DNA of 64,000 nucleotides from an uncultured bacterium (GTDB lineage Bacteria; Chloroflexota; Dehalococcoidia; Lucifugimonadales; Lucifugimonadaceae): the NCBI GenBank assembly GCA_963932695.1, contig CAWVRY010000004.1, positions 10,954 to 74,953 of the forward strand, read 5' to 3'. Under the pieces are notes generated by a model. The model was not told the origin of the DNA. It ran no database searches and worked only from the letters and a program-made list of their open reading frames with translations. A program made the translations under genes and the position numbers. This document shows, one piece after another, positions 11,419 to 47,197 of the stretch (positions within the stretch are counted from its first letter, which is position 1; the number at the start of each line of letters is the position of its first letter).

Positions 11419-14400
11419 TTACGTAGTCAGGTTGCGGTATAGCTGCGGCAGGCGTTTCGGAAGAAGGCTGATATCCGGTAGAACTTCATAGCTGAAGTCT
11501 TCCATCATAGTCTTCATGTAATCGTGCCCAGCCTTATCGACGGTTAGACAGAACGGTGTAATTCCCATGTTGCGCGCTTCGATAAGTGATTGACGGGTGT
11601 CGTGCACCGCGTATTCCTTCTCGACGCCTTCACGAGAGTATCCACGGTCCTGTGGTCGCCCATCAGAGATGAGGAACAAGAATTTCGACCGTGCCTCTGC
11701 TTCTGCGAGTTTAGCGACTGTGTGGCGAATCGCAGGCCCCATACGCGTTGCGTGAAGAGGTGCGATCCGGTCGATACGTCGAGGAACCATGTCAGAGAAT
11801 TTCTCGTCCATATCCTTGATCGTGTAGAACTCCACGTTCTCTCGGCCGTAGCCGGAGAATCCGTAAATTCCGTACATATCACCAATCGCTTCGAGCGAAT
11901 TGACCAAAAGAGTAATTCCCTCTTTTTCAACATCGACGATTCGCTTATAAGTGCGACGAAGACCTTCAGATCGGCGTGAACGCAGCCAGACCATGTACTC
12001 AACAGGATCGTCAGGCGCACCCCAGTCATCGGACGGCTTCTTAGCTTCGTCAATCGCCTCTGCTGTAGACGCAGAGAGGTCCAACAAGAATGCAACGGCA
12101 ACGGACCGTTCGTTCTTGTTCCGACGCCAGTAGAGCTTCTCTTCTGGCGAAACACCGATTTTAAGATCGATCAGTGCTTCCAAAACGGAATCGAGATCAT
12201 ATTCTTCGCCATCTTCGAGTCGCTTCTGTTTGCGGTACATCTCAGGGATGACCAACTCAAACTGTCGCTTGATCTGAGCGACCAATCCTGAGTTCTCTGC
12301 GAGAGTCTCGCGGAAGAAATTAGGTTCGCCGTCGGCCATGATCTTCTCGTGAACCATGCACCAGTTTGGCTTGTATTCGTTCGCCCTGAAATCCCACTCG
12401 GGATACGTGAAGGTATCGGGTTCAGTGGCTGTAAGCGGACCACCATCTTCATCGACATGCTGCGAAGGTCCCGGCTGGAACTGCTGGTTCTCCGGATCGC
12501 GTTTCTGCAGCTCTTTCATCAGGTTTTCGATCATCTCGGAAACCTCTTGATCGCCACCCTCTTCGCCCTCGGTCTGCTCCATTTCCATTTCTGGAGCGTT
12601 CTTCATCATCTCTTCGAGCTGTTCCTGAGTGATTGGCTCCATCTCACCTGACTCCGACATTTCGCCGTTTTCCATCATCTGCATTTGGGAAAGCAGCTGT
12701 GAAAGCTCAGGTTTGAACTCGCCTCGGTAGTCGACTTCTTGAGGAGAAGAGTAGTCCTCTTCGCCCTCACCCTCACTATCCATATCTGGTTCGGATGAAT
12801 CGCCTTCTTCGGGCTCGCCTTCACCCTCGCCATCTGGAGAAGAATGACCCATAAATTGCTGAATCACTTCTTCTGGGTCGACTACATCGTCCTCATCTTC
12901 AGCGGACTCGTCTTCTTCCTCAGGTTCGAGCTGTTCAAAGTCGTCATCGTCGACTTCTTCGTTCTTCACGTCTATTAAGATCGAGTAGGCACGAATCGCT
13001 GCTTCAGCGGCGTCTTCTACCATTGCTTCTACGGAAGTGACTTGTCGGATCAACTTGCGCAACTTACGAGCAACGTCAAGGTGCTCCGATGGCACAAGCA
13101 TTTCGTCGACCTGACCAAGACTGACTCGAATCATGAATTCAACGAGTGCTTCACGTGCAGGTAGTTCCGTTACATCAGGTCGTGCTTCGAGCGAAGCAGT
13201 GCGAACCATGTCGTACATCGTCATTACACCCGGATAAAGCTCTTCGACATATCCGTCGATACGTGAGCTTTCAAGCACAGTGAATGCATCAAGAGCCAAT
13301 CGGCGTTCCTGGAAAAGATCGAAGAATCGACTCATGTCTGTTAGAAATTCTCGGGTCTCGACCTCAACTGGTTCGGCCGCAGCCTGTGCCGGTTCGGCAG
13401 GCGGCTCATGATCAAACACGACCACCTCTGGCGGTGTTGCCGCAGCCTTCTTTGCAACTTCGTCGGCGGCTTTGGCGGCTTTGAGTTCAGATGCTCCCGG
13501 GAGGCGCGGACGAAGATCATCAAACAAAGTCGACGGAATATTGAAATCGAATGCGAACGAACCAAATTCGATGTGCCCGATTTGATGCGTTGATATTACT
13601 TTGAAGAAGCCAAAGTTTTTGTCTTTGGTTTTGTATCGGTTTATTACCGACGGCATGTAGATCGTTGTGCCTTCGGTCGTCGGCAGTTCACCCTGGAACC
13701 AGCCGATATTCTTTTCTGCCAACGCAGCTGCTGCCTGAACGTCAATCGAGCGGCCTGTGAGTGCGAGACAGTACATCTGGATGACGTCTCGGACGCGGGA
13801 AAGTTCGATAGAAGATGAAAGTGAATCAAGCATCTCCTGCGACGCTGGCGATTCAAGCTTAAAGTAGGCAATAGCAGCTTCATCGCTCTCTCGAGCCGTG
13901 CGTAGACCTTCGGCCTGCCATTGCCCCATCTGCTCGAACGTCACTCGTTCGAGCACTTCTGGAACTATCTTAAGAAACGCAGGGGCAGCAGGAGCCGACA
14001 CGGCTGCGATGCCGTCGGTCATTTCGAGTAATCGATCTCGATTGTCGGCTGGGATCCTGTTAACCGTATTTGCACCGTCTCTCAGCACTCCAGCGGCGTC
14101 GCTGACACCAGTGATAGCGAGTCGACGAGCAAGTGAAATCAATGGTGCTCGGTGAGGTGTACCGAGCTCAACGAGCGAGGCGGTCGCAGAGTCGAACAGC
14201 ACAGCGGTTTCTCGCCAAGATTTCTCTGCAACGATTTGCGCAAGGTTGATAAATCGATCGACATCTCCGGTAATTTTCGGAAACAAGTCGATACCGGCAG
14301 CTAGAGCATCACCCGCCTGATCGTAGGATCGGCGCGAGAGAATTTCGAGGAACTCACCGAAATGACAGAACTCTTCGAAAGATAGCGTTTCCAGCAGATC

Positions 14401-14895
14401 GGGAGTCGCCTCGAACAGTCGGCAAGCAAGAGCTGAGGATTTCCAAGTGCCACGGTAGAGGGCTCGGCACACGTTGGCCCAATCGTCGATGTAGCGAGGG
14501 CGTAGGCGAAGCATCGCTTTAGGTGACGATTTGAAATATGCAACTGCCAATGATGGCGAGTCTTCACACAGCGACGTGCCAGTCTTTGCCCACTTCAGGA
14601 ATTGACCTGAAGGAAGCTGTCGTTGAACCGCTACTGAAGCATCAAAGAATTCGGCAGCTGCTTCCCACGACCTCACGGTCTTGCTGGCGATTTCGAGTCC
14701 CTCTTGCGCCCATAGCTGGCAGGTTTCGTCAGCTAATCGTCCGTTTAGCTTTTCGAGGGCAACTTCGTATCGTTCGAGAACCGGAGCCGGGAACTGATCC
14801 AGTTCCTTACGGGTGATCTCGATTGCGTTTTGCTTTGCGTCGTCGGAACTGGTCAACTCTGGTCTTGCCCTTTGTCTGACTGTTTCATGCTGCAT
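11419..14895 (-). CDS. Large NorD/CbbO-like protein with a C-terminal von Willebrand factor A domain
   Basis: 1158 aa. Helical N-terminal region containing a TIYMP...HQIGHIEFGSF block as in NorD/CbbO (COG4548-type) proteins. A roughly 165-aa extremely acidic segment follows. The C-terminal VWA has a MIDAS motif, LLDLSAST (DxSxS). Its start overlaps the upstream Nudix gene by 11 nt. Confidence 0.8.
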   Translation of the reverse strand: MQHETVRQRARPELTSSDDAKQNAIEITRKELDQFPAPVLERYEVALEKLNGRLADETCQLWAQEGLEIASKTVRSWEAAAEFFDASVAVQRQLPSGQFLKWAKTGTSLCEDSPSLAVAYFKSSPKAMLRLRPRYIDDWANVCRALYRGTWKSSALACRLFEATPDLLETLSFEEFCHFGEFLEILSRRSYDQAGDALAAGIDLFPKITGDVDRFINLAQIVAEKSWRETAVLFDSATASLVELGTPHRAPLISLARRLAITGVSDAAGVLRDGANTVNRIPADNRDRLLEMTDGIAAVSAPAAPAFLKIVPEVLERVTFEQMGQWQAEGLRTARESDEAAIAYFKLESPASQEMLDSLSSSIELSRVRDVIQMYCLALTGRSIDVQAAAALAEKNIGWFQGELPTTEGTTIYMPSVINRYKTKDKNFGFFKVISTHQIGHIEFGSFAFDFNIPSTLFDDLRPRLPGASELKAAKAADEVAKKAAATPPEVVVFDHEPPAEPAQAAAEPVEVETREFLTDMSRFFDLFQERRLALDAFTVLESSRIDGYVEELYPGVMTMYDMVRTASLEARPDVTELPAREALVEFMIRVSLGQVDEMLVPSEHLDVARKLRKLIRQVTSVEAMVEDAAEAAIRAYSILIDVKNEEVDDDDFEQLEPEEEDESAEDEDDVVDPEEVIQQFMGHSSPDGEGEGEPEEGDSSEPDMDSEGEGEEDYSSPQEVDYRGEFKPELSQLLSQMQMMENGEMSESGEMEPITQEQLEEMMKNAPEMEMEQTEGEEGGDQEVSEMIENLMKELQKRDPENQQFQPGPSQHVDEDGGPLTATEPDTFTYPEWDFRANEYKPNWCMVHEKIMADGEPNFFRETLAENSGLVAQIKRQFELVIPEMYRKQKRLEDGEEYDLDSVLEALIDLKIGVSPEEKLYWRRNKNERSVAVAFLLDLSASTAEAIDEAKKPSDDWGAPDDPVEYMVWLRSRRSEGLRRTYKRIVDVEKEGITLLVNSLEAIGDMYGIYGFSGYGRENVEFYTIKDMDEKFSDMVPRRIDRIAPLHATRMGPAIRHTVAKLAEAEARSKFLFLISDGRPQDRGYSREGVEKEYAVHDTRQSLIEARNMGITPFCLTVDKAGHDYMKTMMEDFSYEVLPDISLLPKRLPQLYRNLTT

Positions 14896-16422: not shown

Positions 16423-17013
16423 TTAAGGGATAGATTCCCAGAGTTTCGATATTTGATTACGCAAATCTTCAAGCGTTGCGTCGTTTTCAATCACTATGTC
16501 AGCCCTATCGACACGCTCTTGCCTCGTGAACTGCGCAGCAATTCTGGCTTTCGTGTCTAACTCACTCATTCCCGATCGTCGCTCAACCCGCTGAATAACC
16601 ACGCTTTGCGGCGCTTCAACGGTCCACACGACATCGGCGACTTTGTCCCATCCTGATTCGTATAATTTTGGGACTTCAACCACAACGACTCTAGTTCCGC
16701 GTACTGTCTCTTTTTCCAAGAGTGCCAACGTCAGCTTTCGCGTGGCTGGCCAAACAATCTTCTCAAGCTCCAAACGCCGGGCGGTATCGGCGAAAACGAT
16801 TTTGCCCAGAGACTTCCGATCAATAAAACCGGAACCATCCAGAACATCTTCGCCAAACAGTTTTACGATCAACCCATGAGCCGTCGTTCCCGGCTCGTAA
16901 GACTGGTGCGCAACCTTGTCCGACTCGATCACCACTGCTCCCAGATCACGAAGAATGTGAGAAAGCTCGGATTTTCCGGTTCCAATACCGCCGGTGAGAC
17001 CGATGACTAACAC
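16423..17013 (-). CDS. coaE: Dephospho-CoA kinase
   Basis: 196 aa. MLVIGLTGGIGTGKS P-loop and typical CoaE length and layout. Confidence 0.9.
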   Translation of the reverse strand: MLVIGLTGGIGTGKSELSHILRDLGAVVIESDKVAHQSYEPGTTAHGLIVKLFGEDVLDGSGFIDRKSLGKIVFADTARRLELEKIVWPATRKLTLALLEKETVRGTRVVVVEVPKLYESGWDKVADVVWTVEAPQSVVIQRVERRSGMSELDTKARIAAQFTRQERVDRADIVIENDATLEDLRNQISKLWESIP

Positions 17014-17154
17014 TCGAACTCCAAGTAGAGCCAGTTACATAAGTGGCGAACCGACTAATCTTACGCCCGCACGAACCCCATCGCTGTGTTTTTCTCGACT
17101 AGATTCGAGTTCAAGAGTAGTAAACTTTTGTACTTGTAATCGCTAAATTACGTT

Positions 17155-18606
17155 TTGACTGTTCGACTGACTCGCTTATTGCCACGTACAGGCGAATTGC
17201 GTAAACGATCTGGGAGTGTCCATTTGACAGAGTCCGCATACCGATCACTTCCTTCGGTGGACGCGCTTCTTCAATCAGAAGAAGTCGCAGACCTTGTTCG
17301 AAATTTTTCCCACGATGCGGTTACTACGATCGCCCGTGAAGAACTGGGAAAAGCACGTGCGATTATCAAGAGTTCCGGGGCTGCTCCCGGCTTTAATTCG
17401 ATGGTTGCTCAAATCGTGAAACGCGCCGACAGCGCATGGGGCACTTGGCCTAAGCCGGTCGTCAACGCTACTGGGGTCGTCCTTCACACGAATCTTGGAC
17501 GTTCGCCGCTGAGCAATGATGCGGCTCGTTCGGCCGCCGAATCGGCATCGATCTACTCTGATCTGGAGTTTGATCTTGGCTCAGGTAAACGCGGCTCTAG
17601 AAATACCCATATCTCCGATCTCATTTCACAGACGACAGGGGCCGAATCTGGAATCGCCGTAAACAATAACGCCTCCGCTGTACTACTAACTTTGGCAGCC
17701 GTGGCGGGTGCAAACAATGAGAAAAACGAGGTCATCGTGTCTAGGGGGGAGGCTGTGGAAATCGGTGGTGGGTTTCGGATACCAGACGTGATGCGTCAGT
17801 CAGGCGCAACTCTCGTTGAAGTGGGTACGACGAATCGTACTTACGCAGCCGACTACGAAGCCGCTATCACCCCAAATACTGCAGCAATTCTCAAGGTTCA
17901 CCCAAGCAACTTTGTCGTTGAGGGCTTCACTCATGTTCCAGAACTGGCTGACATGGTCGGCGTCGGCAAGAAGCACGGAATCCCTGTAATCAATGATCTG
18001 GGATCGGGCTGTCTGGTCGACACTCGAAAATATGGACTCGATCAAGAGCCTAAAGCGCAAGATTCGGTGTCAGATGGCGCTGCACTAACGTTGTTCTCGG
18101 GCGACAAGCTGTTGGGTGGGCCGCAGGCTGGTCTTATAGCCGGTGAAAAGCAGTGGGTTAATCTGGTTTCGAAGCACCCACTTGCACGTGCAGTACGAAT
18201 CGACAAGATGACGCTTTCGGCAATCGCAGCCACCCTAGTTTCATATCTCAAAGGTGCGCACGAAGAAGATATTCCGATCTGGAACATGATTTCCATGAGC
18301 GAAGCATTGATCGCTAGCCGAGCAGAAAAGTGGAAATCGGAATCTGGTATCGGAGAGGTTCAGCGAGCCAAATCGGCAGTTGGCGGCGGTTCGCTACCGG
18401 GGCAAACCCTACCAACAACGGTATTGGCCATCGACCCAACCGGCAGCCCAGATGGTTTTGCGGCAAATCTTCGCAAAGCTCCCGTTGCCGTCATTGCCAG
18501 AATCGAAAACGACCGAATCATATTGGATCCTCGCACCGTACTTACTACTCAGGATCACGCTGTGGTCAAAGCGATCAAATTCGCTGTCAGTCAGTCGGCG
18601 CAATGA
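17155..18606 (+). CDS. selA: L-seryl-tRNA(Sec) selenium transferase (selenocysteine synthase)
   Basis: 483 aa, TTG start. Blocks nearly identical to E. coli SelA: VLHTNLGRS, VNNNASAVLL, SRGEAVEIGGGFRIPDVMRQSG, VGTTNRT, PLP-Lys FSGDKLLGGPQAG, and RIDKMTL. Confidence 0.93.
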   Translation: MTVRLTRLLPRTGELRKRSGSVHLTESAYRSLPSVDALLQSEEVADLVRNFSHDAVTTIAREELGKARAIIKSSGAAPGFNSMVAQIVKRADSAWGTWPKPVVNATGVVLHTNLGRSPLSNDAARSAAESASIYSDLEFDLGSGKRGSRNTHISDLISQTTGAESGIAVNNNASAVLLTLAAVAGANNEKNEVIVSRGEAVEIGGGFRIPDVMRQSGATLVEVGTTNRTYAADYEAAITPNTAAILKVHPSNFVVEGFTHVPELADMVGVGKKHGIPVINDLGSGCLVDTRKYGLDQEPKAQDSVSDGAALTLFSGDKLLGGPQAGLIAGEKQWVNLVSKHPLARAVRIDKMTLSAIAATLVSYLKGAHEEDIPIWNMISMSEALIASRAEKWKSESGIGEVQRAKSAVGGGSLPGQTLPTTVLAIDPTGSPDGFAANLRKAPVAVIARIENDRIILDPRTVLTTQDHAVVKAIKFAVSQSAQ

Positions 18607-19004
18607 GTCCTAAAAGACGCAGACGCCCAAACCCAACTTCAGAACAAGCATGGGAATCGAACTCCAACGCTTCTTCAAATGGCTACGATGCCGCAGAGAT
18701 CGAGATCGATCTTCACGGCATGAGGGCTCATGAAGCTGAAACTGCGATTTTGGTCCACCTTCAACACTGCCACAATTCCCGCTTACATATCGCTAAGATT
18801 AATCACGGTCATGGCACCGGCGTACTAAAGCAATTAAGCCGAGATATTTTGACTAAAAGCGACCTAGTTGTGCGCCATTACGCAGCCCCATATGGCGACG
18901 GCGGCGACGGAGTTACGATTGCCGAACTGAACTATGGTGGGCACAAAGCATTCAACCGCCGTGCAAACAATGAGATCGTTCCAAAAGCGTTACCTCGAAA
19001 GTAA
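18603..19004 (+). CDS. Smr (small MutS-related) domain protein
   Basis: ATG 18603 overlaps the selA stop (ATGA). The sequence MSPKRRRRP...IDLHGMRAHEA...INHGHGTGVLK matches the Smr-domain LDLHG / GxGxG pattern. The longer track ORF (18330..) lies inside selA and is not credible. Confidence 0.75.
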   Translation: MSPKRRRRPNPTSEQAWESNSNASSNGYDAAEIEIDLHGMRAHEAETAILVHLQHCHNSRLHIAKINHGHGTGVLKQLSRDILTKSDLVVRHYAAPYGDGGDGVTIAELNYGGHKAFNRRANNEIVPKALPRK

Positions 19005-19085
19005 TTTAAGGCACAGTTACCGACTTGATGACTGACCCTCAATTGCCATTCATCTCGACCCGTCGGCACATTCGTGGCGTAACCT

Positions 19086-20432
19086 GTGACTATGACTCTG
19101 TTCGACCATCGTAAACAAGAAATTCAAGATCGCATCGCTCCATTGGCGACTCGTATGCGTCCGCAAACTCTTGACGAATACGTCGGTCAAAAACACATCC
19201 TCACCCCCGGCAAAGTTCTGCGAAGAGCTATCGACGAAGACCGCCTACCTTCGATGATTCTTTGGGGACCACCCGGAAGTGGAAAAACAACACTTGCCCG
19301 CTTGATTGCCGGTGAGACCAATTCCCATTTCGAGCAGTTGAGCGCCGTAACCTCGGGCGTAAAAGACGTTCGAGCAGTGATGGCGTTGGCGGGCGAACGG
19401 CTGGGGCAAACGGGTCGAAAAACCATCCTTTTCATCGACGAAATTCACCGCTTCTCTAAATCGCAGCAAGATGGCCTGCTACCGCATGTCGAAGATGGCA
19501 TAGTCACGCTGATCGGTGCGACTACCGAGAATCCTTCATTTGAAGTCATATCTCCGCTTCTGTCGAGAACTCGGGTCTACACGCTCGAACCGCTACATGA
19601 CGAAGACATCACAGAAATCGTCGAACGGGCAATTGCTGACGAAGATCACGGGCTTGGTCGAGATGGTGTTTCACTTTCCGAAGACTCGATGCACTTTCTG
19701 CTCAGAGTTGCCAACGGCGACGCTCGTTCGGCTCTGAACACACTCGAACTAGCTGTCGAGTCGACCGAGAAGAATAAGTCAGGAAGCATCTCTGTTGAAG
19801 TCGAAACGATGGAAGAGTCGGTCCAGCGCCAGTCGCGTTACGACCGTCTGGGCGACATGCACTACGACACGATCTCGGCGTTCATCAAGACGATACGCGC
19901 CTCTGATCCCGACGCCGCATTGTACTATCTGGCCCGAATGATCGATGCCGGAGAAGATCCTGTTTTCATTGCGCGTAGATTGGTTATTTCTGCTGCCGAA
20001 GACATCGGACTCGCCAATCCCAACGGGCTTGCAGTCGCAATGGCGGCGCAACAGGCCGTCAGCTTTGTTGGCATGCCTGAAGGTAGAATTCCGCTGGCTG
20101 AAGCGACGATTTATCTGGCAACCGCCCCAAAATCGAACTCAGCGTACAAGGCGATCGACAAAGCGCTGGAATTCGTGAAGGCTTCGCGTGATGAACCCGT
20201 GCCGCAGCATCTTCGGAACGCCCCTACCCGCCTCATGAAAGATCTTGGCTACGGCGAGGGTTACGAATATCCACACGACAAACCAGGTCATTTTTCGCAG
20301 TCGGACAACTTACCCGACGCGATAAAGGATGAACGGTTCTACGATCCGGGCAATCTTGGAACCGAACACGGTATACGCGAGCGACTCATCGGCTGGTGGG
20401 GCGAACGATACGGAAAATCATCGGACGACTAG
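19086..20432 (+). CDS. rarA: Replication-associated recombination protein A (MgsA/RarA AAA+ ATPase)
   Basis: 448 aa. Walker A GPPGSGKTT, FIDEIHRFSKSQQD, GATTENPSFEV, and the C-terminal MgsA block (HYD.ISAFIKT.R.SDPDAALYYLARM). Confidence 0.93.
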   Translation: MTMTLFDHRKQEIQDRIAPLATRMRPQTLDEYVGQKHILTPGKVLRRAIDEDRLPSMILWGPPGSGKTTLARLIAGETNSHFEQLSAVTSGVKDVRAVMALAGERLGQTGRKTILFIDEIHRFSKSQQDGLLPHVEDGIVTLIGATTENPSFEVISPLLSRTRVYTLEPLHDEDITEIVERAIADEDHGLGRDGVSLSEDSMHFLLRVANGDARSALNTLELAVESTEKNKSGSISVEVETMEESVQRQSRYDRLGDMHYDTISAFIKTIRASDPDAALYYLARMIDAGEDPVFIARRLVISAAEDIGLANPNGLAVAMAAQQAVSFVGMPEGRIPLAEATIYLATAPKSNSAYKAIDKALEFVKASRDEPVPQHLRNAPTRLMKDLGYGEGYEYPHDKPGHFSQSDNLPDAIKDERFYDPGNLGTEHGIRERLIGWWGERYGKSSDD

Positions 20433-41182: not shown

Positions 41183-41392
41183 ATGTGTAGAATGACCGCC
41201 GGCCCGTTACTTGCGATAATGGGTGTGGCTGGAACTGCAGCAGGGGTCGGATTGGCCGTTGTTCGCGAACGACTCGATCGAAGGTCAGACGCCCGCGCCG
41301 CCAGAGAAGCAGCAGCCGACCAAGACGACAACGACTCTGAATCAACTCGCTCGACCGATTCAACTGACTCTGCTGGCTCAGATAAGTCCTAG
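41183..41392 (+). CDS. Possible small membrane protein (one TM plus an acidic/Ser-rich tail), weakly supported
   Basis: 69-aa [30 protein letters not shown]... followed by a charged tail. It overlaps the 3' end of the convergent gene by 15 nt. No recognisable family. Confidence 0.25.
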
Positions 41393-43444
41393 CTGTTCGA
41401 GCATCTCAGCCGTACTCGTAACGGGTAGTTTGCAAGCATAGTTTTCGCAAATATAAGCCGTTGCCTTGCCGTTCACCCGACTCCGACCCTCTAGCAATGG
41501 CGATCCGCCAGGTTCGCTAGAACCTTCAACAGCACCTGCCAATACCCGGTTCGGCTCGAACGAACTTCGTAGTTCACGTTTCATTTCTGAAATAACAGAA
41601 TCCGATTCGTCCCCAATCAGCACCACCTCTTGCGAATTCGATCGCAAGAAGTCGACAGCCGCTAGCCAGGATGTAACCGCGGACGGTGCCTGCTCCATGT
41701 GTGGAATCAACGCCTTCATCGACGTTTCGGCTTTCTCTGCGTACTCTGCAATCCCGGTGAATACGCTCAAACGTTGCAAAGCCATCGCAGCAATCGCTCC
41801 ACCCGACGGCACGGCGTTATCAAGTACATCACGTGGGCGAACCAATAACTTCGAGTGTTCGAGTGATGTGTCATAGAACACACTCCAGTCTTTGTCCCAG
41901 AAACGTTCGATCATCTGATCAGCAATAGCCTGCGCCTCGCGAACATACGAGAAGTCGAACGTCGCTTCGTACAGCGTCAGAAGAGCGTCGACCAAGTAAG
42001 CGTGGTCATCGAGGTACCCAAGGATTCGTGCATCGCCCTCCGACTCGCTGGTCGCCTTCCACGTATGAAGCAATAATCCATTCTCGTCACGCACTTGATC
42101 TAATAGCAATCGAGCGTTATTTTTTGCTGTGGCAATCCACTCATCGTTTTCAAATACAGCACCTGCTTCTGCAAACGCCTTGAGCATAAGTGCGTTCCAC
42201 GAAACGAGAATCTTGTCGTCGATTCCCGGCGCTATTCGTTTCGACCGCTCCTGATACAGAATCCCACGAACTCTCTCGATGTCGGCGATAAGGTCTGCGG
42301 GCTCCTGCGCAGTTCGGGACAGAAACTCTGGCAGTGACATTGGCATGTTAAGGATGTTCGATCCTTCGAAATTCCCTTCCTCCGATATCCCCCAATAAGC
42401 CTTGGCTAGCTCAGCGTCATATGAATCCAGTGCGGAATCTATCTCATGAGATTTCCAGACAAAGAATTTCCCTTCGACTCCCTCGGAATCGGCGTCAGAA
42501 GCTGAATAGAAACCTCCGGCAGCGTGAGTCATCTCTTTGGTCACATATTCGAGCGTTTCTTCAATGACCCGCTTGAACAACGGTTTTTTCGTGGCCTGAT
42601 ATGCATGTATATACAGCGATATGAGTTGGGCGTTGTCGTACAGCATCTTTTCGAAGTGAGGTACGAGCCAGCGATCATCTACCGAGTAACGAGCAAACCC
42701 ACCACCGATCTGATCGTAGATACCACCATGAGCCATTTTTTCGAGCGTAAGAGTCACTATGTCGAGCACTTGCGAGCTATTGGTCCGCTTCCAGTATCGG
42801 AGCAACAGTTCGTAGATCATCGGTTGCGGGAATTTTGGCGCACCCTGTGACCCGCCATGCTCCAGATCAGCATTACCGACCAGTTGTGTAAAACTTCCGA
42901 ATATCAGCGACTCATCAACTGATTCTTCGATTTTCTTCGGGGTTGCTTGTTCGCGAATAGCGTCCACAACCTGCTTCGAGTTGTCGAGAATTTCCTGGCG
43001 CTTGTTGGCGTACGCATCCGAGATCGCTGCAAGCACTCGCGGGAATCCTGCCATGTTAGGTCGATCTTCAGGCGGGAAGTATGTTCCACCAAAAAACGGT
43101 TGACCGTCTGGAGCAATAAATACGGTCAGAGGCCAACCGCCTGAACCGGTCATTGCTTGAACTGCGGTCATGTATATCGAGTCGACGTCGGGGAGTTCTT
43201 CTCGATCGACTTTAATGTTGATGAATCCATCGTTCATCACTGCTGCAATCGACTCATTTTCGAACGACTCGTGCGCCATTACGTGGCACCAGTGACACGA
43301 CGAGTATCCGATAGATAACAAAATGGGTCTGTCGAGCAATCTGGCCGCCGCCAATGCCTCTTCACCCCACGGATACCAATCGACTGGATTGTCCTTGTGT
43401 TGGAGCAAGTACGGGCTTGTTTCGTTGGCCAGTCGGTTGGGCAT
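41378..43444 (-). CDS. Thioredoxin-domain protein of the YyaL/DUF255 (SPATA20-like) family
   Basis: 688 aa. NRLA.E.SPYLLQH..NPVDW.PWG.EA, the thioredoxin-like SCHWCHVM motif, and a C-terminal six-hairpin glycosidase-like region. Confidence 0.88.
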
Positions 43445-43547
43445 GTTTTCCTGATTCTCTAAGTGCTCGCGCCATGTTGGGTTATGTGAGTTCGATGCGC
43501 TTTGATTAGTTGGCGGTACATCAAATTTAGGACGATCCGAACTGTTG

Positions 43548-45092
43548 CTACAGACCTATCAATTTCAATGTGCAAACCTCTTTGGTGTTTAATTCGATGA
43601 CTTTAATTTTGTGATTATTAGTATCGGCGATGTATATCCGATTTCCAGCGACCGCCACGCCAGCAGGTTCGCTAAATTGGGCAATGTTCGAGAAACCGTC
43701 CACGTCGCCTGCTTTCCCTGAGCCGGCAATAGTGCCGACCAGTAACGACCCAATGGCTACCGACTTAATTTTGTTGTTATACGAATCAGCAACGTAGATG
43801 ACATCTTTGCTGACAGCGAGTCCCTGCGGATGCTGGAACAGAGCATCTTTGCCAACCGCATCAACGTCGCCAAAATCGAACAATCCTTTGCCGATCAGTG
43901 TTACAACCCTACCCTCGTCTGCGATAGCTGAAACTCTGAGCGCGCTAGTTTCACTATCGATGAAAAATACTGCGTTGTTCGATACTTCGATTCCGAACGG
44001 CTGTGCAAGTCGCGCTTTCGATTTGAGATCGTCGTGTATATCTTCGCCGCCATCCCCCGCGAACGGACTCACTGTGCTTTCGGCTATGTTCATCGCCCAA
44101 AGCTGATGGAACCCTGCCATTGCCACATACAGAACTCCTTCATGAAGTGAGAGGTCGTATGGCGAGTTGAGTGGCGTGGTTAGAGCATCCCCACCCTGAT
44201 GTCGATACAAAGACCGCTCGCCAGTTCCGGCGATGGTCTCGGCAGTTCCAGCAACGAGACCGACTTTCACGATGGTATGCGTTCCAGCGTCGGATACATA
44301 CAAGGTTTCACCATCGATCACGACACCGTGTGGATTGTCGAACAATGGCTGATCGAAAGCTCGCTCGGAAAAGACACCGGAATGTTCAATTTCTGCAAGC
44401 GGAGATTCACCGTTGCCAATGACAGCTTCGACCTTACCATCGAGATCGCTGACGATAAGCCGGCGATGATTCGAGTCGGAAATCACCAAAATTTCCCGCT
44501 CGGAGTCGGCTGTAATTTTGCCGGGGAACGACAGCTGTGTCTCGGGTTTAGTCTCCGGAAGAAGATCCAACTTCCCATGCACAAAATTGCCCATCGGTTC
44601 GTGTTCTTCGATCATTCCAGCCAGCACCTGATCGAGTGCATCGACGGGGAACTCGCCTTCGTGTCGACCAATCACTTTGCCTGTTGGATCAAGGAACATT
44701 AGGGTTGGCCAGGCACGAGCTGCGTACGACTTCCATATCTCGAAGTCGGCATCGTTCACTACTGGGTGGCCAATTCCGTAACGACGCACTGCCTCTCGCA
44801 CGTTCTCTGACGACTTTTCTGCATTGAATTTCGCCGAGTGAACACCAACGACGGTCAGAATGTCGGCATACTTTTTTTCCAGCTTCCGCAACTGCGGAAG
44901 TACATGCATGCAGTTAATTCAGCAGTAGGTCCAAAAATGAAGAACGACGAGTCGACCTCGAAGGTCTTCCAGAGTTAGCGGGGCTTTGGTGTTGAACCAT
45001 TCAAGTCCTTCCGGAAACTCCGGAGCGTGGATCGTGCCTTCGTACCTTGTCGCCAACGGTGGCCCCCAACTAGCATCGTCCGAAAAATCATG
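43548..45092 (-). CDS. NHLRC2-like thioredoxin-fold / six-NHL-repeat protein, probable selenoprotein (in-frame UGA at 44919-44921)
   Basis: The track ORF (43548-44909) lacks the N-terminal half of the thioredoxin domain. The same frame continues through a single TGA to ATG 45090-45092, giving ...[53 protein letters not shown]...GVHSAKF. Six NHL repeats follow (e.g. [24 protein letters not shown]). Confidence 0.8.
44883..44900 (-). promoter_or_regulatory. Candidate bacterial SECIS hairpin
   Basis: On the mRNA, 18 nt downstream of UGA: CUUCCGCAGUUGCGGAAG. Self-complementary arms CUUCCG(CA)/(UG)CGGAAG with a G-U-containing apex. Located inside the coding sequence. Confidence 0.55.
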
Positions 45093-45167
45093 AGTGAACG
45101 ATTATTTCACGTCGCTTCGACCGTAACTCGTAGCCCAGTGCAGATTTAGATCAGCATATTGAACGAA

Positions 45168-46100
45168 CTACTCGGCAATGAACACCGGTTGCGACCATGC
45201 CCGCGTGCCACGCGACGAATAAACGGTCGCTCGCACGTAACCGTCGAGCCGAGTTGGCGAGTACGAAGGCGACAGACTCGTCGATTCGTACAGTAATCGA
45301 CCGTTCATCCCAGTGAATAGAGTCGTGTACTTGGCCTGAACGCCATCGCTTGGAGTCGTTTCGGGATCGATATCGAGTTTGATATGCCGCTCGTTCGCGA
45401 TCATGTCCCCAATAGTCACACCGGTCGATGCGTAGAACTCGCCATCCGACATCGCTTCGTAAATATCTTGCTGTGTCAGCTTGGCCGCCTTGACCTGCAC
45501 CCATCCCCTCCCGGGATTCGAGCGATTGGCGCTGAACTCGCCGGTGTAATGGTGCGAGTCATCGACTGCGATTCCCCATACTCGTCGATCATTGCTCAGC
45601 AGTCGATCCCAAATGCCATCGGTGCTTGCCTTACCTCCACCGCCAGCATTGTGGGTCTCAGGATGGCCATTGAAGACTTCCATGAACTTATAGCCTTCAA
45701 CCTGCATCATTGCGCCGTCATCGAACGCCCAGCGAAAGTTAGGATGATTTATCGACGCCATCCCGCCAGCCGCAATAATCCGGTCGACGTTCTCTCGCAT
45801 GGCGGTAACGATATCCGTTGAGTCAGAAGCCTCGACAACTTCGGTGACTCCATAGCCGTTTACGTGAACGGGACCATCGGAATTTCGAGAGGTCACTTCT
45901 TCGCCAGCTACTAGTAACGGCCACTTGGCTTTCTCGGCGTCGCTGCCTTCGAGGATTGTCAGGTGGTTGTGATCTGAAAGGCACAGCCAGTCGTAGCCCT
46001 GCTCGTGGTACCACTCGGCAACGTGTTCCGCCGATTCGTCGCCGTCGCTGTTGGTCGTGTGGGTGTGGAGATTGCCTTTGAGCCAGCTTTTTGTAGTCAT
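45168..46100 (-). CDS. PHP-domain (CehA/McbA-like) metallohydrolase
   Basis: 310 aa. GNLHTHTTNSDGD and CLSDHN metal-binding motifs at the N-terminus. Confidence 0.8.
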   Translation of the reverse strand: MTTKSWLKGNLHTHTTNSDGDESAEHVAEWYHEQGYDWLCLSDHNHLTILEGSDAEKAKWPLLVAGEEVTSRNSDGPVHVNGYGVTEVVEASDSTDIVTAMRENVDRIIAAGGMASINHPNFRWAFDDGAMMQVEGYKFMEVFNGHPETHNAGGGGKASTDGIWDRLLSNDRRVWGIAVDDSHHYTGEFSANRSNPGRGWVQVKAAKLTQQDIYEAMSDGEFYASTGVTIGDMIANERHIKLDIDPETTPSDGVQAKYTTLFTGMNGRLLYESTSLSPSYSPTRLDGYVRATVYSSRGTRAWSQPVFIAE

Positions 46101-46282
46101 ACCCAGATTTTACAGATCATTTGAAGCGACCGAGCAGTCGAACGTCGTTGACAGTGGGCAAACATGACGAGAGACTCCGCAAATGTCTCGATCCGTTTGC
46201 TCGAACCGAGCATAATTACGAACTTTATTTACCGGCTTATAGCTACAACTCGACGTCAATTCATTTCTAGGATTTTTTCGAT

Positions 46283-47197
46283 ATGGCAAAACTAAAGGTG
46301 CTAATGACAGGCGCAAGCGGATACATCGCTTCGTTGATGTTACCGACTATGCGGGATCATTTCGACATGGTTCTTGCCGACGTTTCGGACACCGACCGTG
46401 ATGGCAAAAAAATCGAAGGAGTTCAAATAGCCGATTTCATCGATACGGATCGATCGAAATATTCGCACCTTTTCGATGGTATCGATGCTGTAATTCACTT
46501 GGCGTTCAAGCCACATACCGCTCGTGGAGCCCAGTTCGAAAAGACACCAATCGATAGATTCGACAACGAACACGAAAACGTCCAGATGGCGAACAATATC
46601 TATCGCTCTGCCTACGATTCCGGGGTGCGACGTATTGCTGTGGCAAGTTCTAATCACGCCGCCGACTGGTACGAGCATTCGCTAATTCATGATCGCAAGA
46701 TGGACATGGTTCGTCCGACAGATTTTCCGATTTCCGATAATTTTTACGGCTGGGCGAAGGCTGCGTATGAGCTGCTGTCTTATCCGTATGCATGCGGCAT
46801 TTTTGGTCGAAAGCTCGAGACGGTAATGCTGAGAATCGGATTCACTCGCCCTATTCAAGCTGCTCAATATCTATCCGCCGATTCGATGTCGGAACAAACT
46901 CGGGGCGGCTTAGAGGAGTTCAAACGGAATCTTGGCGCCTACATCAGTCCACGGGATATAACGCAATTATTCACCAAAGCAGTCGAAGCACCGGACATCG
47001 AAAACGAACACGGCGTGCCGTTTGTTGTTGCGTACGGCTGTAGCGACAATACCCGACGCTTTTGGTCGTTAGAGACCGCTCGAAAGTATCTCGACTACCA
47101 ACCAGAGGACGACACCGAAGTGATCTACTCGCAGGAGATAGTCCAGCTAATCACCGGCGACCGCACAGATATCCGAGGCGGAAAAGTAGGGATTTAA
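46283..47197 (+). CDS. NAD-dependent epimerase/dehydratase-family (extended SDR) protein
   Basis: 304 aa. VLMTGASGYIAS Rossmann motif and a YGWAK (YxxxK) catalytic motif. Confidence 0.8.
   Translation: MAKLKVLMTGASGYIASLMLPTMRDHFDMVLADVSDTDRDGKKIEGVQIADFIDTDRSKYSHLFDGIDAVIHLAFKPHTARGAQFEKTPIDRFDNEHENVQMANNIYRSAYDSGVRRIAVASSNHAADWYEHSLIHDRKMDMVRPTDFPISDNFYGWAKAAYELLSYPYACGIFGRKLETVMLRIGFTRPIQAAQYLSADSMSEQTRGGLEEFKRNLGAYISPRDITQLFTKAVEAPDIENEHGVPFVVAYGCSDNTRRFWSLETARKYLDYQPEDDTEVIYSQEIVQLITGDRTDIRGGKVGI

What the first reader, a model, noticed from the sequence alone, without database searches (positions are those of the whole stretch)
43548..45092. Probable selenoprotein: NHLRC2-like thioredoxin/NHL-repeat protein with a C-U-I-N-C redox motif and a SECIS-like hairpin
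The ORF track starts this gene at ATG 44907-44909 ([14 protein letters not shown]...). That start would remove the first half of its thioredoxin fold, including the redox motif.

Reading the same minus-strand frame upstream, I find one TGA (44919-44921) and then 57 more sense codons back to ATG 45090-45092. The resulting N-terminus is [57 protein letters not shown]-[TGA][10 protein letters not shown]....

The blocks PEFPEGLEW and F(F/W)TYCCINC..LP are, to my recollection, the hallmark N-terminus of NHLRC2-type proteins, whose motif is CCINC. Here the TGA sits exactly where the first Cys of the CxxC pair would be, giving UxxC. That is the typical position of Sec in redox selenoproteins.

Eighteen nt downstream of the UGA, the mRNA forms CUUCCGCAGUUGCGGAAG (44883-44900). 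This is a strong hairpin with G and U at its apex, in the distance range used by bacterial SECIS elements. Selenocysteine synthase selA is encoded in the same window (17155-18606).
Basis: partly seen in the sequence, partly recalled or inferred. Interest (0 to 1): 0.8.

Follow-up and report, generated by a model that had tools for sequence, protein, structure and literature searches.

The report
Selenocysteine form of NHLRC2/SOQ1-type protein
This gene almost certainly encodes a selenium-containing bacterial relative of the human disease protein NHLRC2 and the plant protein SOQ1, with selenocysteine replacing a cysteine in the CCINC motif whose redox role in NHLRC2 has been questioned, although selenium insertion has not been shown experimentally.

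Summary
The finding holds, with one correction. The proposed ATG start is out of frame. The real start is TTG 45056-45054, which gives a 502-aa protein, not 514.

Full-length Cys homologs begin at that same position and read FWT[YF]CCINCMH. The TGA replaces the second Cys, which is the first Cys of the CxxC.

In 80 species-level genomes, 44 have TGA at this codon and 35 have Cys. The peptide is conserved on both sides of the codon, and selection upstream is purifying.

The 7-bp hairpin with its AGUU loop meets all four published bacterial SECIS criteria. RNAalifold predicts it independently. Four of its 7 pairs show compensatory changes, and Cys forms lack it.

selA is in the window. selB, selC and selD are not, so they are untested. 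Three independent assemblies carry the TGA.

The protein matches SOQ1 and NHLRC2 at E of about 1e-100.

Public gene calls truncate it to 453 aa. I found no publication or NCBIfam model describing a Sec form, though generic "Trx-like UxxC" bins may hide it.

It is a new member of a known kind. Its value is as natural evidence that this CCINC cysteine is a catalytic redox residue.

The parts
43548..45056 (-). Complete selenoprotein gene of 502 codons plus stop: Trx-like domain, then an NHL beta-propeller. It is an NHLRC2/SOQ1-type protein without the C-terminal domain.
   Evidence: Pfam gives Thioredoxin_8 at residues 34-128 plus NHL repeats. PDB sequence search gives SOQ1 7djj at E=1e-101 and NHLRC2 6gc1 at E=7e-98, covering residues 5-501. 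Full-length Cys homologs align end to end.
45054..45056 (-).
   Evidence: It is the only ATG/GTG/TTG between the in-frame TAA (45104-45102) and the TGA. Cys homologs start at the aligned residue. L002 has ATG and L001/L003 have TTG at the same -45 codon. Most Sec loci have a start 45-47 codons before the TGA, typically ATG preceded by a GGAG-like element. The window has GGGGG 6 nt upstream.
44919..44921 (-). In-frame UGA read as selenocysteine (U46). It corresponds to Cys90 of human NHLRC2 and Cys431 of Arabidopsis SOQ1, the N-terminal residue of the CxxC within C-U-I-N-C.
   Evidence: It aligns to the second Cys of CCINC. TGA sits at this codon in 44 of 80 genomes. Three independent assemblies carry it.
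44883..44900 (-). SECIS hairpin within the coding sequence: 7-bp stem CUUCCGC/GCGGAAG and loop AGUU. It encodes part of L-P-Q-L-R-K.
   Evidence: Hairpin-only MFE is -10.4 kcal/mol. RNAalifold predicts the same helix. Cells are 98% paired, 4 of 7 pairs show compensatory change, and the covariation score is 0.287 against 0.128 shuffled (0/500) and at most 0.121 when slid. Cys forms average 2.6 of 7 pairs.
44907..44909 (-). Internal Met50 codon, which gene callers mistake for the start.
   Evidence: the ORF listing returns 43548..44909. More than 100 database clusters are called at 449-461 aa starting MH[VI][LF]PQL. Met50 is conserved within FWTYCCINCMH in full-length homologs.
17155..18606 (+). 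selA, the L-seryl-tRNA(Sec) selenium transferase. It is the only part of the Sec machinery found in the window.
   Evidence: TIGR00474 equivalog at 516.2 bits against a cutoff of 267.9, covering 1-453 of 455. Pfam SelA at 430.9 bits plus Se-cys_synth_N.
41378..43444 (-). Downstream neighbour: a DUF255/Thioredox_DsbH protein (YyaL/SPATA20-type) with an SCHWCH motif. It is a possible functional partner, inferred only from conserved adjacency.
   Evidence: Pfam PF03190 at 255 bits. The motif is visible in the translation. The gene lies directly downstream in 13 of 44 Sec loci, down to about 47-50% identity, and in 0 of 35 Cys loci. The same arrangement is seen in L081-L083.

Best explanation
The gene at 45056..43548 (minus strand) encodes a 502-residue cytoplasmic selenoprotein.

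How translation is proposed to work:
- Translation starts at TTG 45056.
- At UGA 44921-44919, the downstream mRNA hairpin (44900-44883; 7-bp stem, AGUU loop, 25 nt between the UGA and the loop) acts as a bacterial SECIS.
- The SECIS recruits SelB-GTP-Sec-tRNA(Sec), so selenocysteine is inserted instead of translation terminating. This step is inferred from the canonical bacterial mechanism.
- Sec-tRNA(Sec) is made by the SelA encoded in the same window.

The product:
- Its active-site motif is C45-U46-I-N-C49 in place of CCINC.
- Sec46 occupies the exposed N-terminal nucleophile position of the CxxC. I infer that it attacks an oxidised substrate held in the Trx/NHL cleft and is resolved by Cys49 as a selenenylsulfide.
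- By analogy with SOQ1, the likely chemistry is protein disulfide or sulfoxide reduction.

What is shown: the gene structure, the Sec/Cys pairing, the SECIS conservation and covariation, family membership, and selA.

What is inferred: actual Se incorporation, the substrate, and any partnership with the neighbouring DUF255 thioredoxin-domain protein.
For: - Frame, stop and start.
- Full-length Cys homologs start at the aligned position and read FWT[YF]CCINCMH across the TGA.
- Of 80 species-level genomes, 44 have TGA, 35 have TGC/TGT and 1 has TAA at this codon. The peptide is conserved on both sides.
- Purifying selection acts upstream of the TGA: 21 synonymous against 6 nonsynonymous differences over 42 codons versus L001.
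- The hairpin forms 7/7 bp in 38 of 45 Sec forms, against a mean of 2.6/7 in Cys forms.
- RNAalifold independently returns the same helix.
- The covariation score is 0.287. No shuffle out of 500 reaches it and every slid control is far lower.
- All four published bSECIS criteria are met: loop of 3-9 nt, stem of 4-16 bp, G in the first two loop positions followed by U, 16-37 nt spacing, and MFE of -7.5 or lower (criteria from PMC13188914; values).
- selA is an equivalog-level match.
- The TGA is present in 3 independent metagenome assemblies, two of which differ from the window by one upstream base (E13K).
- TGA also ends 5 of 38 long ORFs in the window, so it has not been reassigned globally.
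- SOQ1 and NHLRC2 match at E=1e-101 and 7e-98. U46 maps to NHLRC2 C90, P117 to the cis-Pro P163, and D102 to the FINCA residue D148 (with residue numbering from PMC6107167).
- The SOQ1 C431-C434 pair is redox-active and required for function (bioRxiv 10.1101/2024.11.01.621559).
Against: - There is no direct evidence of selenium incorporation, such as proteomics or 75Se labelling.
- selB, selD and tRNA-Sec are not in the window, and the rest of the genome is not available.
- The hairpin overlaps a conserved peptide, LPQLRK. Part of its sequence conservation could therefore be protein-level, although the Leu/Phe-Lys(AAG/AAA) covariation and the contrast with Cys forms argue for RNA-level selection.
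- Most Sec forms come from one clade, so cell counts overstate the number of independent events.
- One Sec form (L005) has an AUUU loop with no G.
- NHLRC2 showed no activity in the insulin reduction assay (PMC6107167), so the specific chemistry is uncertain.
Confidence: 0.92

Rival explanations
1. The gene is as annotated: translation starts at ATG 44909 and gives a 453-aa protein without the CxxC. The upstream 45 codons are an untranslated leader or a decayed remnant, that is, a 5'-truncated gene or pseudogene.
For: Every public gene call makes this choice. An ATG lies 4 codons after the TGA. L057 and L069 show that members of the family can decay.
Against: - The upstream 45 codons are under purifying selection.
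- They align residue for residue with the N-terminal half of the Trx fold in full-length homologs and in the SOQ1/NHLRC2 crystal structures.
- A start codon, mostly preceded by an SD-like element, sits 45-47 codons upstream of the TGA in most of the 33 Sec loci checked.
- The truncated product would begin inside helix alpha-1 of the Trx fold.
- The same 'truncation' at one exact codon in 44 species cannot be explained by decay.
Confidence: 0.03
2. The UGA is read through without selenocysteine, for example by near-cognate Trp or Cys insertion. Alternatively, it is a programmed stop that yields a 45-aa peptide plus a reinitiated 453-aa protein.
For: selB, selC and selD have not been seen. Low-level UGA read-through is known in bacteria (general knowledge).
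Against: - The aligned residue is a catalytic-type Cys, which is the classic Sec/Cys pair.
- A structured element meeting the bSECIS criteria is conserved, with compensatory changes, only in the TGA forms.
- selA, whose only known role is Sec-tRNA synthesis, is present.
- A related genome, UBA1141 (= L009), is reported to hold 49 selenoproteins (PMC13326102).
Confidence: 0.04
3. The TGA is a sequencing or assembly error for TGC/TGT.
For: None beyond the single-base distance between the codons.
Against: TGA is present in 3 independent JGI assemblies of the same population. Two of them differ from the window by one nearby base, which shows they are independent. TGA is also present in 44 other species.
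Confidence: 0.005

Closest known systems
Human NHLRC2 (PDB 6GC1; FINCA disease protein)
   Same: - The Trx-like (Trx_8-type) domain and NHL beta-propeller match at E=7e-98 over residues 5-498.
- The motif context F[FW]TYC-C/U-INC-[MI]H is the same.
- The cis-Pro (P163 = P117) and D148 (= D102) are conserved.
- Neither protein has a signal peptide.
   Different: - The window protein has Sec where NHLRC2 has Cys90.
[quoted passage not shown]
- It lacks the roughly 50-residue N-terminal extension.
- It is bacterial.
Arabidopsis SOQ1 lumenal Trx-like/NHL/CTD region (PDB 7DJJ)
   Same: - It is the best PDB match, at E=1e-101 over residues 11-501.
- It has the identical [14 protein letters not shown] block.
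- The C431-C434 pair, which equals U46-C49 here, is redox-active (Em -274 mV) and required for function.
   Different: - SOQ1 is membrane-anchored, with a stromal HAD domain and lumenal domains.
- It has a CTD with a second Cys pair, which receives electrons and is reported to carry methionine sulfoxide reductase activity. The window protein has no CTD, HAD domain or TM segment.
- SOQ1 has Cys, not Sec.
Known bacterial thioredoxin-fold UxxC selenoproteins (Sec-Trx, Prx-like thiol:disulfide oxidoreductase, 'Redoxin family protein', 'Thiol-disulfide isomerase-like protein')
   Same: - Sec is at the N-terminal position of a CxxC in a Trx fold.
- An in-ORF bacterial SECIS follows the UGA.
- Cys homologs are abundant, and Sec/Cys exchange is dynamic (PMC2398784, PMC13188914, PMC1794560).
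   Different: - The catalogued families are listed as single-domain Trx/Prx-like bins. None is described with an NHL propeller or as an NHLRC2/SOQ1 ortholog.
- The CUINC motif is absent from the held GOS selenoprotein sequences, and GOS 'Prx-like 3' reads YUGLC.
- No NCBIfam selenoprotein model hits this protein.
Mycobacterium tuberculosis DipZ C-terminal Trx-like domain (PDB 2HYX)
   Same: The Trx-like domain matches at E=2e-21, with a related SCINC active-site motif (PMC6107167).
   Different: DipZ is fused to a CcdA/DsbD-type membrane domain, has no NHL propeller, and has Cys rather than Sec.

Membership tests
Bacterial selenoprotein gene (Sec-UGA plus bSECIS) | An in-frame UGA that aligns with Cys in homologs (a Sec/Cys pair) | tested here: met
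   TGA 44921-44919 aligns with the second Cys of CCINC in 9 full-length proteins and in 35 Cys-form genomes.
Bacterial selenoprotein gene (Sec-UGA plus bSECIS) | Coding conservation on both sides of the UGA | tested here: met
   Upstream 42 codons versus L001: 15 identical, 21 synonymous, 6 nonsynonymous. Downstream 42 codons: 25, 14, 3. The peptide alignment agrees.
Bacterial selenoprotein gene (Sec-UGA plus bSECIS) | bSECIS model: apical loop of 3-9 nt, upper stem of 4-16 bp, G in the first two loop positions, 16-37 nt from UGA to loop, MFE of -7.5 kcal/mol or lower (PMC13188914) | tested here: met
   The loop is AGUU (4 nt, G at position 2 followed by U). The stem is 7 bp. The spacing is 25 nt. 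The MFE is -10.4 kcal/mol.
Bacterial selenoprotein gene (Sec-UGA plus bSECIS) | The RNA structure is maintained by compensatory change and is specific to UGA-containing forms | tested here: met
   Four of 7 pairs show changes on both sides, 98% of cells are paired, and the covariation score of 0.287 is reached by 0 of 500 shuffles. RNAalifold gives the same helix. Cys forms average 2.6 of 7 pairs.
Bacterial selenoprotein gene (Sec-UGA plus bSECIS) | Sec machinery in the genome: selA, selB, selC (tRNA-Sec) and selD | tested here: inconclusive
   selA is present at equivalog level. There is no tRNA-Sec in the window, and selB and selD are not among the large ORFs scanned. The rest of the genome is unavailable.
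Bacterial selenoprotein gene (Sec-UGA plus bSECIS) | Demonstrated selenium incorporation | not testable with these tools
   This needs 75Se labelling or mass spectrometry.
NHLRC2/SOQ1 family (Trx-like plus NHL propeller) | An N-terminal Trx-like (Thioredoxin_8-type) domain with a CC(I/V)NC motif at the start of helix alpha-1 | tested here: met
   PF13905 covers residues 34-128. C45-U46-I-N-C49 aligns with CCINC of 6gc1 (chain 96-100 = residues 89-93) and of 7djj. Sec replaces the second Cys.
NHLRC2/SOQ1 family (Trx-like plus NHL propeller) | A conserved cis-Pro next to the active site (NHLRC2 P163) and conserved D148 | tested here: met
   W116-P117-T aligns with NHLRC2 W-P163-T, and D102 aligns with D148. 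Both are invariant in alignment A1.
NHLRC2/SOQ1 family (Trx-like plus NHL propeller) | A six-bladed NHL beta-propeller directly after the Trx-like domain | tested here: met
   Residues 174-501 align with the isolated propeller structures 6g7w (10-358) and 7djm (8-344) at E=3e-50 and 4e-53. Pfam NHL scores 84.9 bits. The blades were not counted on a 3D model.
NHLRC2/SOQ1 family (Trx-like plus NHL propeller) | [quoted passage not shown] | tested here: not met
   The protein ends at the last propeller blade, and the alignment to SOQ1 stops at chain residue 513 of 667. Some Cys homologs (P0107, P0109, P0111, P0118) do carry a C-terminal extension. [quoted passage not shown]

The most novel reading that the evidence does not exclude
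This is a previously undescribed selenoprotein family that is widespread in Chloroflexota and also found in Fervidibacter, Dormiibacterota and NC10. It is orthologous to human NHLRC2 and plant SOQ1, and is systematically mis-annotated as a 453-aa protein.

The recurrent Sec/Cys exchange at NHLRC2-C90/SOQ1-C431 includes an apparently independent gain in NC10 with a different SECIS. That exchange is natural genetic evidence that this residue is a catalytic redox nucleophile. [quoted passage not shown]

The conserved DUF255 (SPATA20-like) neighbour may be its redox partner or substrate.
Probability: 0.45. Interest if true: 0.6.

Novelty: new member of a known kind. Interest (0 to 1): 0.5.

Why it matters
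**Annotation.** More than 100 database clusters of this protein are called 5'-truncated, without their active site. NCBIfam has no selenoprotein model for the family, so the error propagates.

**Function of NHLRC2 and SOQ1.** Sec/Cys pairs are an accepted signature of catalytic redox cysteines. NHLRC2 is essential in mammals and is mutated in FINCA disease, yet its biochemistry is unknown. Its CCINC motif was argued not to act in thiol-disulfide exchange (PMC6107167), whereas SOQ1 work argues the opposite (10.1101/2024.11.01.621559). Selenocysteine at exactly this position in dozens of bacterial lineages supports a catalytic redox role. It also offers a naturally more reactive enzyme form for biochemical assays.

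**RNA constraint on protein sequence.** The family shows clearly how an in-ORF SECIS constrains the encoded peptide: PQLRKLE in Sec forms against PDLK[KR]LE in Cys forms.

**Sec/Cys turnover.** It also illustrates Sec/Cys gain and loss, with a relic hairpin in Cys revertants and a separate SECIS in NC10.

Tried and rejected
Rejected because it is out of frame.
- **Rfam and ARAGORN on the window.** They found only tRNA-Ser(GCU). There was no tRNA-Sec and no SECIS family hit. I saw no Rfam family for this bacterial SECIS, so the negative says little.
- **selB and selD among the window's large ORFs.** Not found. The ORFs scanned were an ABC auxiliary protein, PurL-like, UvrB, a beta-eliminating lyase, DUF4340, FtsZ-like, a DEAD helicase, a luciferase-like protein, MutS and a VWA protein.
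- **Scan for further TGA-interrupted genes with redox-like motifs.** Of 46 mechanical candidates, only the target looks genuine. The rest are short shadow or antisense frames. None was followed up with homology searches.
- **An extended lower stem.** It appears in the single-sequence MFE fold but is not supported by the alignment fold, so I dropped it.
- **Promoter and terminator scan of 41200-46400.** Nothing on the minus strand exceeded chance, so operon status is unresolved.
- **Literature searches.** Searches for NHL, NHLRC2, SOQ1 or CUINC together with selenoprotein terms found nothing relevant. The BSepDB supplements are not held, and Haft & Tolstoy 2025 is not held. I therefore cannot exclude that the family is already catalogued under a generic Trx-like name.
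- **Structure prediction.** Not run. The sequence match to two crystal structures at E of about 1e-100 made it redundant.
Full report
**1. Observation**

- The minus-strand ORF called mechanically is 43548..44909, 453 aa, starting MHVLPQL.
- Reading the same frame upstream gives a single TGA at 44921-44919, followed by sense codons up to an in-frame TAA at 45104-45102.
In frame the sequence reads CAT GAT TTT (HDF).
- The only canonical start between the TAA and the TGA is TTG 45056-45054, 45 codons before the TGA.
- The corrected product is 502 aa: (M)[55 protein letters not shown]...
- selA at 17155-18606 is confirmed at equivalog level: 516 bits against TIGR00474, cutoff 267.9.

**2. What the gene is**

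- Pfam finds a Thioredoxin_8/AhpC-TSA/Redoxin-type domain at residues 25-145 and NHL repeats.
- Against PDB sequences the best matches are Arabidopsis SOQ1 (7djj, E=1e-101, residues 11-501) and human NHLRC2 (6gc1, E=7e-98, residues 5-498). Both contain F[FW]TYCCINC[MI]H.
- Residue mapping on the 6gc1 chain, which is offset +7 from UniProt numbering, gives three correspondences:
  - U46 = NHLRC2 Cys90 (= SOQ1 Cys431)
  - P117 = the active-site cis-Pro163
  - D102 = Asp148, the FINCA mutation site
- The protein stops at the end of the propeller, so it lacks the C-terminal domain of NHLRC2 and SOQ1. It has no signal peptide or TM segment.

**3. Is the TGA a Sec codon? Comparative evidence**

- A protein database search with U replaced by C returned more than 100 clusters, down to about 53% identity. 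All were called at 449-461 aa and covered only 90% of the query, so all are truncated at the same Met. A minority were full-length.
- The full-length proteins start at the residue aligned with the window's TTG and read FWT[YF]CCINCMH across the TGA position.
- I fetched the genomic DNA for 80 species-representative genomes and read the codon directly. The counts were 44 TGA, 35 TGC/TGT and 1 TAA (L057, which also has a second stop and looks like a pseudogene).
- In every TGA locus the upstream frame encodes the conserved APEFPxGLxWxNT...LRGKxVxLDFWTYC block.
- In most of the 33 Sec loci checked (the window plus L001-L032) a start codon lies 45-47 codons upstream of the TGA, typically an ATG preceded by a GGAG-like element. 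L002 has ATG, and L001 and L003 have TTG, exactly where the window has TTG.
- Against L001, the 42 codons upstream of the TGA differ by 21 synonymous and 6 nonsynonymous changes, so that segment is translated and under purifying selection.
- The identical gene, with its TGA, occurs in three independent JGI metagenome assemblies. Two of them differ from the window by one nearby SNP, which excludes an assembly artefact.
- TGA also terminates 5 of 38 long ORFs in the window, so it has not been reassigned globally.

**4. The SECIS**

Numbering takes the U of the UGA as position 1. Positions 22-28 pair with 39-33, and the loop at 29-32 is AGUU.

Comparison of Sec and Cys forms:

| Measure | Sec forms | Cys forms |
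|---|---|---|
| Hairpin pairs formed | 7/7 in 38 of 45 | mean 2.6 of 7 |
| Mean MFE of the 60 nt downstream | -15.4 kcal/mol | -8.2 kcal/mol |

- On an alignment of 35 Sec forms, RNAalifold returns exactly this helix and nothing else.
- The pair count shows 98% of cells paired and 4 of 7 pairs with compensatory changes. The variants are U-A/C-G at 22-39, U-A/C-G/G-C at 24-37, G-C/C-G/U-A at 27-34, and C-G/G-U at 25-36.
- The covariation score is 0.287, against 0.128 ± 0.015 in shuffles (0 of 500 reach it) and at most 0.121 with slid partners.
- The 22-39 covariation couples the first base of a Leu/Phe codon to the third base of a Lys codon. That is hard to explain by protein-level selection alone.
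- The published bacterial SECIS constraints are a 3-9 nt loop, a 4-16 bp stem, G in the first two loop positions (usually followed by G or U), 16-37 nt from UGA to loop, and MFE of -7.5 or lower (PMC13188914). All are met: a 4-nt loop AGUU, a 7-bp stem, 25 nt spacing and -10.4 kcal/mol.
- The RNA constraint shows in the protein. Sec forms read PQLRKLE where Cys forms read PDLK[KR]LE.

**5. Evolutionary pattern**

This rests on a rough NJ tree.

- Sec forms make up a large clade centred on Chloroflexota. It is mostly Dehalococcoidia, with Thermomicrobiales, Ardenticatenia and Chloroflexia, and with Ca. Fervidibacter sacchari and a Dormiibacterota MAG inside it.
- A small Cys subclade (L033, L042, L055) is nested within the Sec clade. 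L042 still forms 6 of the 7 hairpin pairs, which is consistent with Sec-to-Cys reversion.
- Two NC10-type loci (L061, L066) carry TGA but sit among Cys forms. They have a different hairpin, CCAGAGC-UGGAC-GCUCUGG, which suggests an independent Cys-to-Sec event.
- This matches the dynamic Sec/Cys exchange described for bacterial selenoproteins (PMC1794560).
- Dehalococcoidia bacterium UBA1141, which is my locus L009, is listed among the most selenoprotein-rich bacteria, with 49 selenoproteins (PMC13326102).

**6. Context**

- On the minus strand the gene order is a PHP/CehA-family metallohydrolase (46100-45168), the selenoprotein (45056-43548), and a DUF255/Thioredox_DsbH protein (43444-41378) with an SCHWCH motif.
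- The DUF255 gene lies directly downstream in 13 of 44 Sec loci, down to about 47-50% identity, and in none of the 35 Cys loci.
- This is confounded by phylogeny, but it contrasts with an earlier report of no conserved neighbours for bacterial NHLRC2 homologs (PMC6107167).
- No terminator or promoter signal above chance separates the genes.
- selA stands alone between coaE and an MgsA-type ATPase. No selB, selD or tRNA-Sec is in the window.

**7. Mechanism**

- Shown: the gene model, the Sec/Cys pair, the SECIS, family membership and selA.
- Inferred from the canonical bacterial pathway: SelB binds the hairpin and delivers Sec-tRNA(Sec) to the UGA.
- Inferred from thioredoxin-fold chemistry and from SOQ1 (C431-C434 redox-active, Em -274 mV, required in vivo; Trx-like domain passes electrons onward; methionine sulfoxide reductase activity reported): Sec46 is the attacking nucleophile, it is resolved by Cys49 as a selenenylsulfide, and the NHL propeller cleft holds the substrate.
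- Because the CTD is absent, the electron acceptor or substrate must be a separate molecule. The DUF255 neighbour is a candidate, but nothing more than that.

**8. Known or new?**

- Trx-fold UxxC selenoproteins with in-ORF SECIS elements are a well-known kind.
- I found no paper connecting NHL, NHLRC2 or SOQ1 with selenocysteine.
- The 2026 review's family table does not mention NHL and lists only generic Trx/Prx/Redoxin bins.
- The held GOS selenoprotein sequences lack the UINC motif.
- NCBIfam has no selenoprotein model that hits this protein.
- All public gene calls I saw are truncated.
- The BSepDB family lists and some subscription papers could not be read, so prior cataloguing under a generic label cannot be excluded.
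- I rate it a new member of a known kind.

**9. Verdict**

- Confidence that this is a genuine Sec-decoded selenoprotein gene is about 0.92.
- Interest is moderate. The mechanism is routine for selenoprotein specialists.
- The finding is still useful, because it places selenocysteine at the contested CCINC residue of a human disease protein family and exposes a systematic annotation error across many genomes.

Noticed in passing
L057:1471-1545 (JBPCRG010000234.1, Thermomicrobiales MAG): The Sec codon position holds TAA instead of TGA, while the 7/7 SECIS hairpin is intact. A second in-frame stop lies upstream (GLD*SNT). This is probably a recently inactivated copy or a low-quality contig.
   Followed up: partly
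L061:4112-4171 and L066:4112-4171 (NC10-type MAGs): These Sec forms are nested among Cys forms on the NJ tree. They carry a different hairpin (CCAGAGC-UGGAC-GCUCUGG, starting 24 nt after the UGA) and the peptide LPELDALE instead of LPQLRKLE. This suggests an independent Cys-to-Sec conversion with a SECIS that evolved on its own.
   Followed up: partly
L042:4118-4195, L033, L055 (Chloroflexota/Dehalococcoidia Cys forms): A Cys-containing subclade is nested inside the Sec clade. L042 still forms 6 of the 7 hairpin pairs (UUGCCGA-CGCU-GCGGCGG), which looks like a relic SECIS left after Sec-to-Cys reversion.
   Followed up: partly
L005:4115-4201 (OZ220681.1): This Sec form has a fully paired stem, including a compensatory C-G, but its loop is AUUU. 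There is no G in the first two loop positions, so it fails one published bSECIS rule.
   Followed up: no
window 41378-43444 (-): A DUF255/Thioredox_DsbH (YyaL/SPATA20-type) gene with an SCHWCH motif lies immediately downstream of the selenoprotein gene. The adjacency is conserved in 13 of 44 Sec loci and in 0 of 35 Cys loci. An earlier paper reported no conserved neighbours for bacterial NHLRC2 homologs.
   Followed up: partly
window 44883-44906 and the homologous positions in L001-L080: The SECIS imposes a peptide signature: PQLRKLE in Sec forms against PDLK[KR]LE in Cys forms. Base pair 22-39 couples the Leu/Phe first codon base (C/U) to the Lys third codon base (G/A).
   Followed up: yes
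window 1-64000: TGA is the rarest stop codon among long stop-to-stop ORFs, with 5 TGA against 21 TAG and 12 TAA. The window's GC content is 51.7%.
   Followed up: no
window 16423-20432: selA (17155-18606) is not clustered with selB, selC or selD. It sits between coaE (16423-17013, minus strand) and an MgsA-type AAA+ ATPase (19086-20432).
   Followed up: partly
window 11419-14895 (-): A 1158-aa ORF has only a weak C-terminal VWA domain hit (E=2.7e-5). It is otherwise uncharacterised.
   Followed up: no
L032 (NZ_CP130454.1, Candidatus Fervidibacter sacchari strain PD1, 638386-647834): A named strain with a complete genome, outside Chloroflexota, carries a Sec form with a compensated hairpin (CUGCCGC-AGUU-GCGGCAG). 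It could serve as an experimental system and may reflect horizontal transfer.
   Followed up: no
L069:4001-4200 (CAVSAD010000008.1): This locus has the TGA, but the upstream reading frame is broken by a frameshift and stops, and the 3' arm of the hairpin has a one-base insertion. It is a likely pseudogene or assembly error.
   Followed up: no
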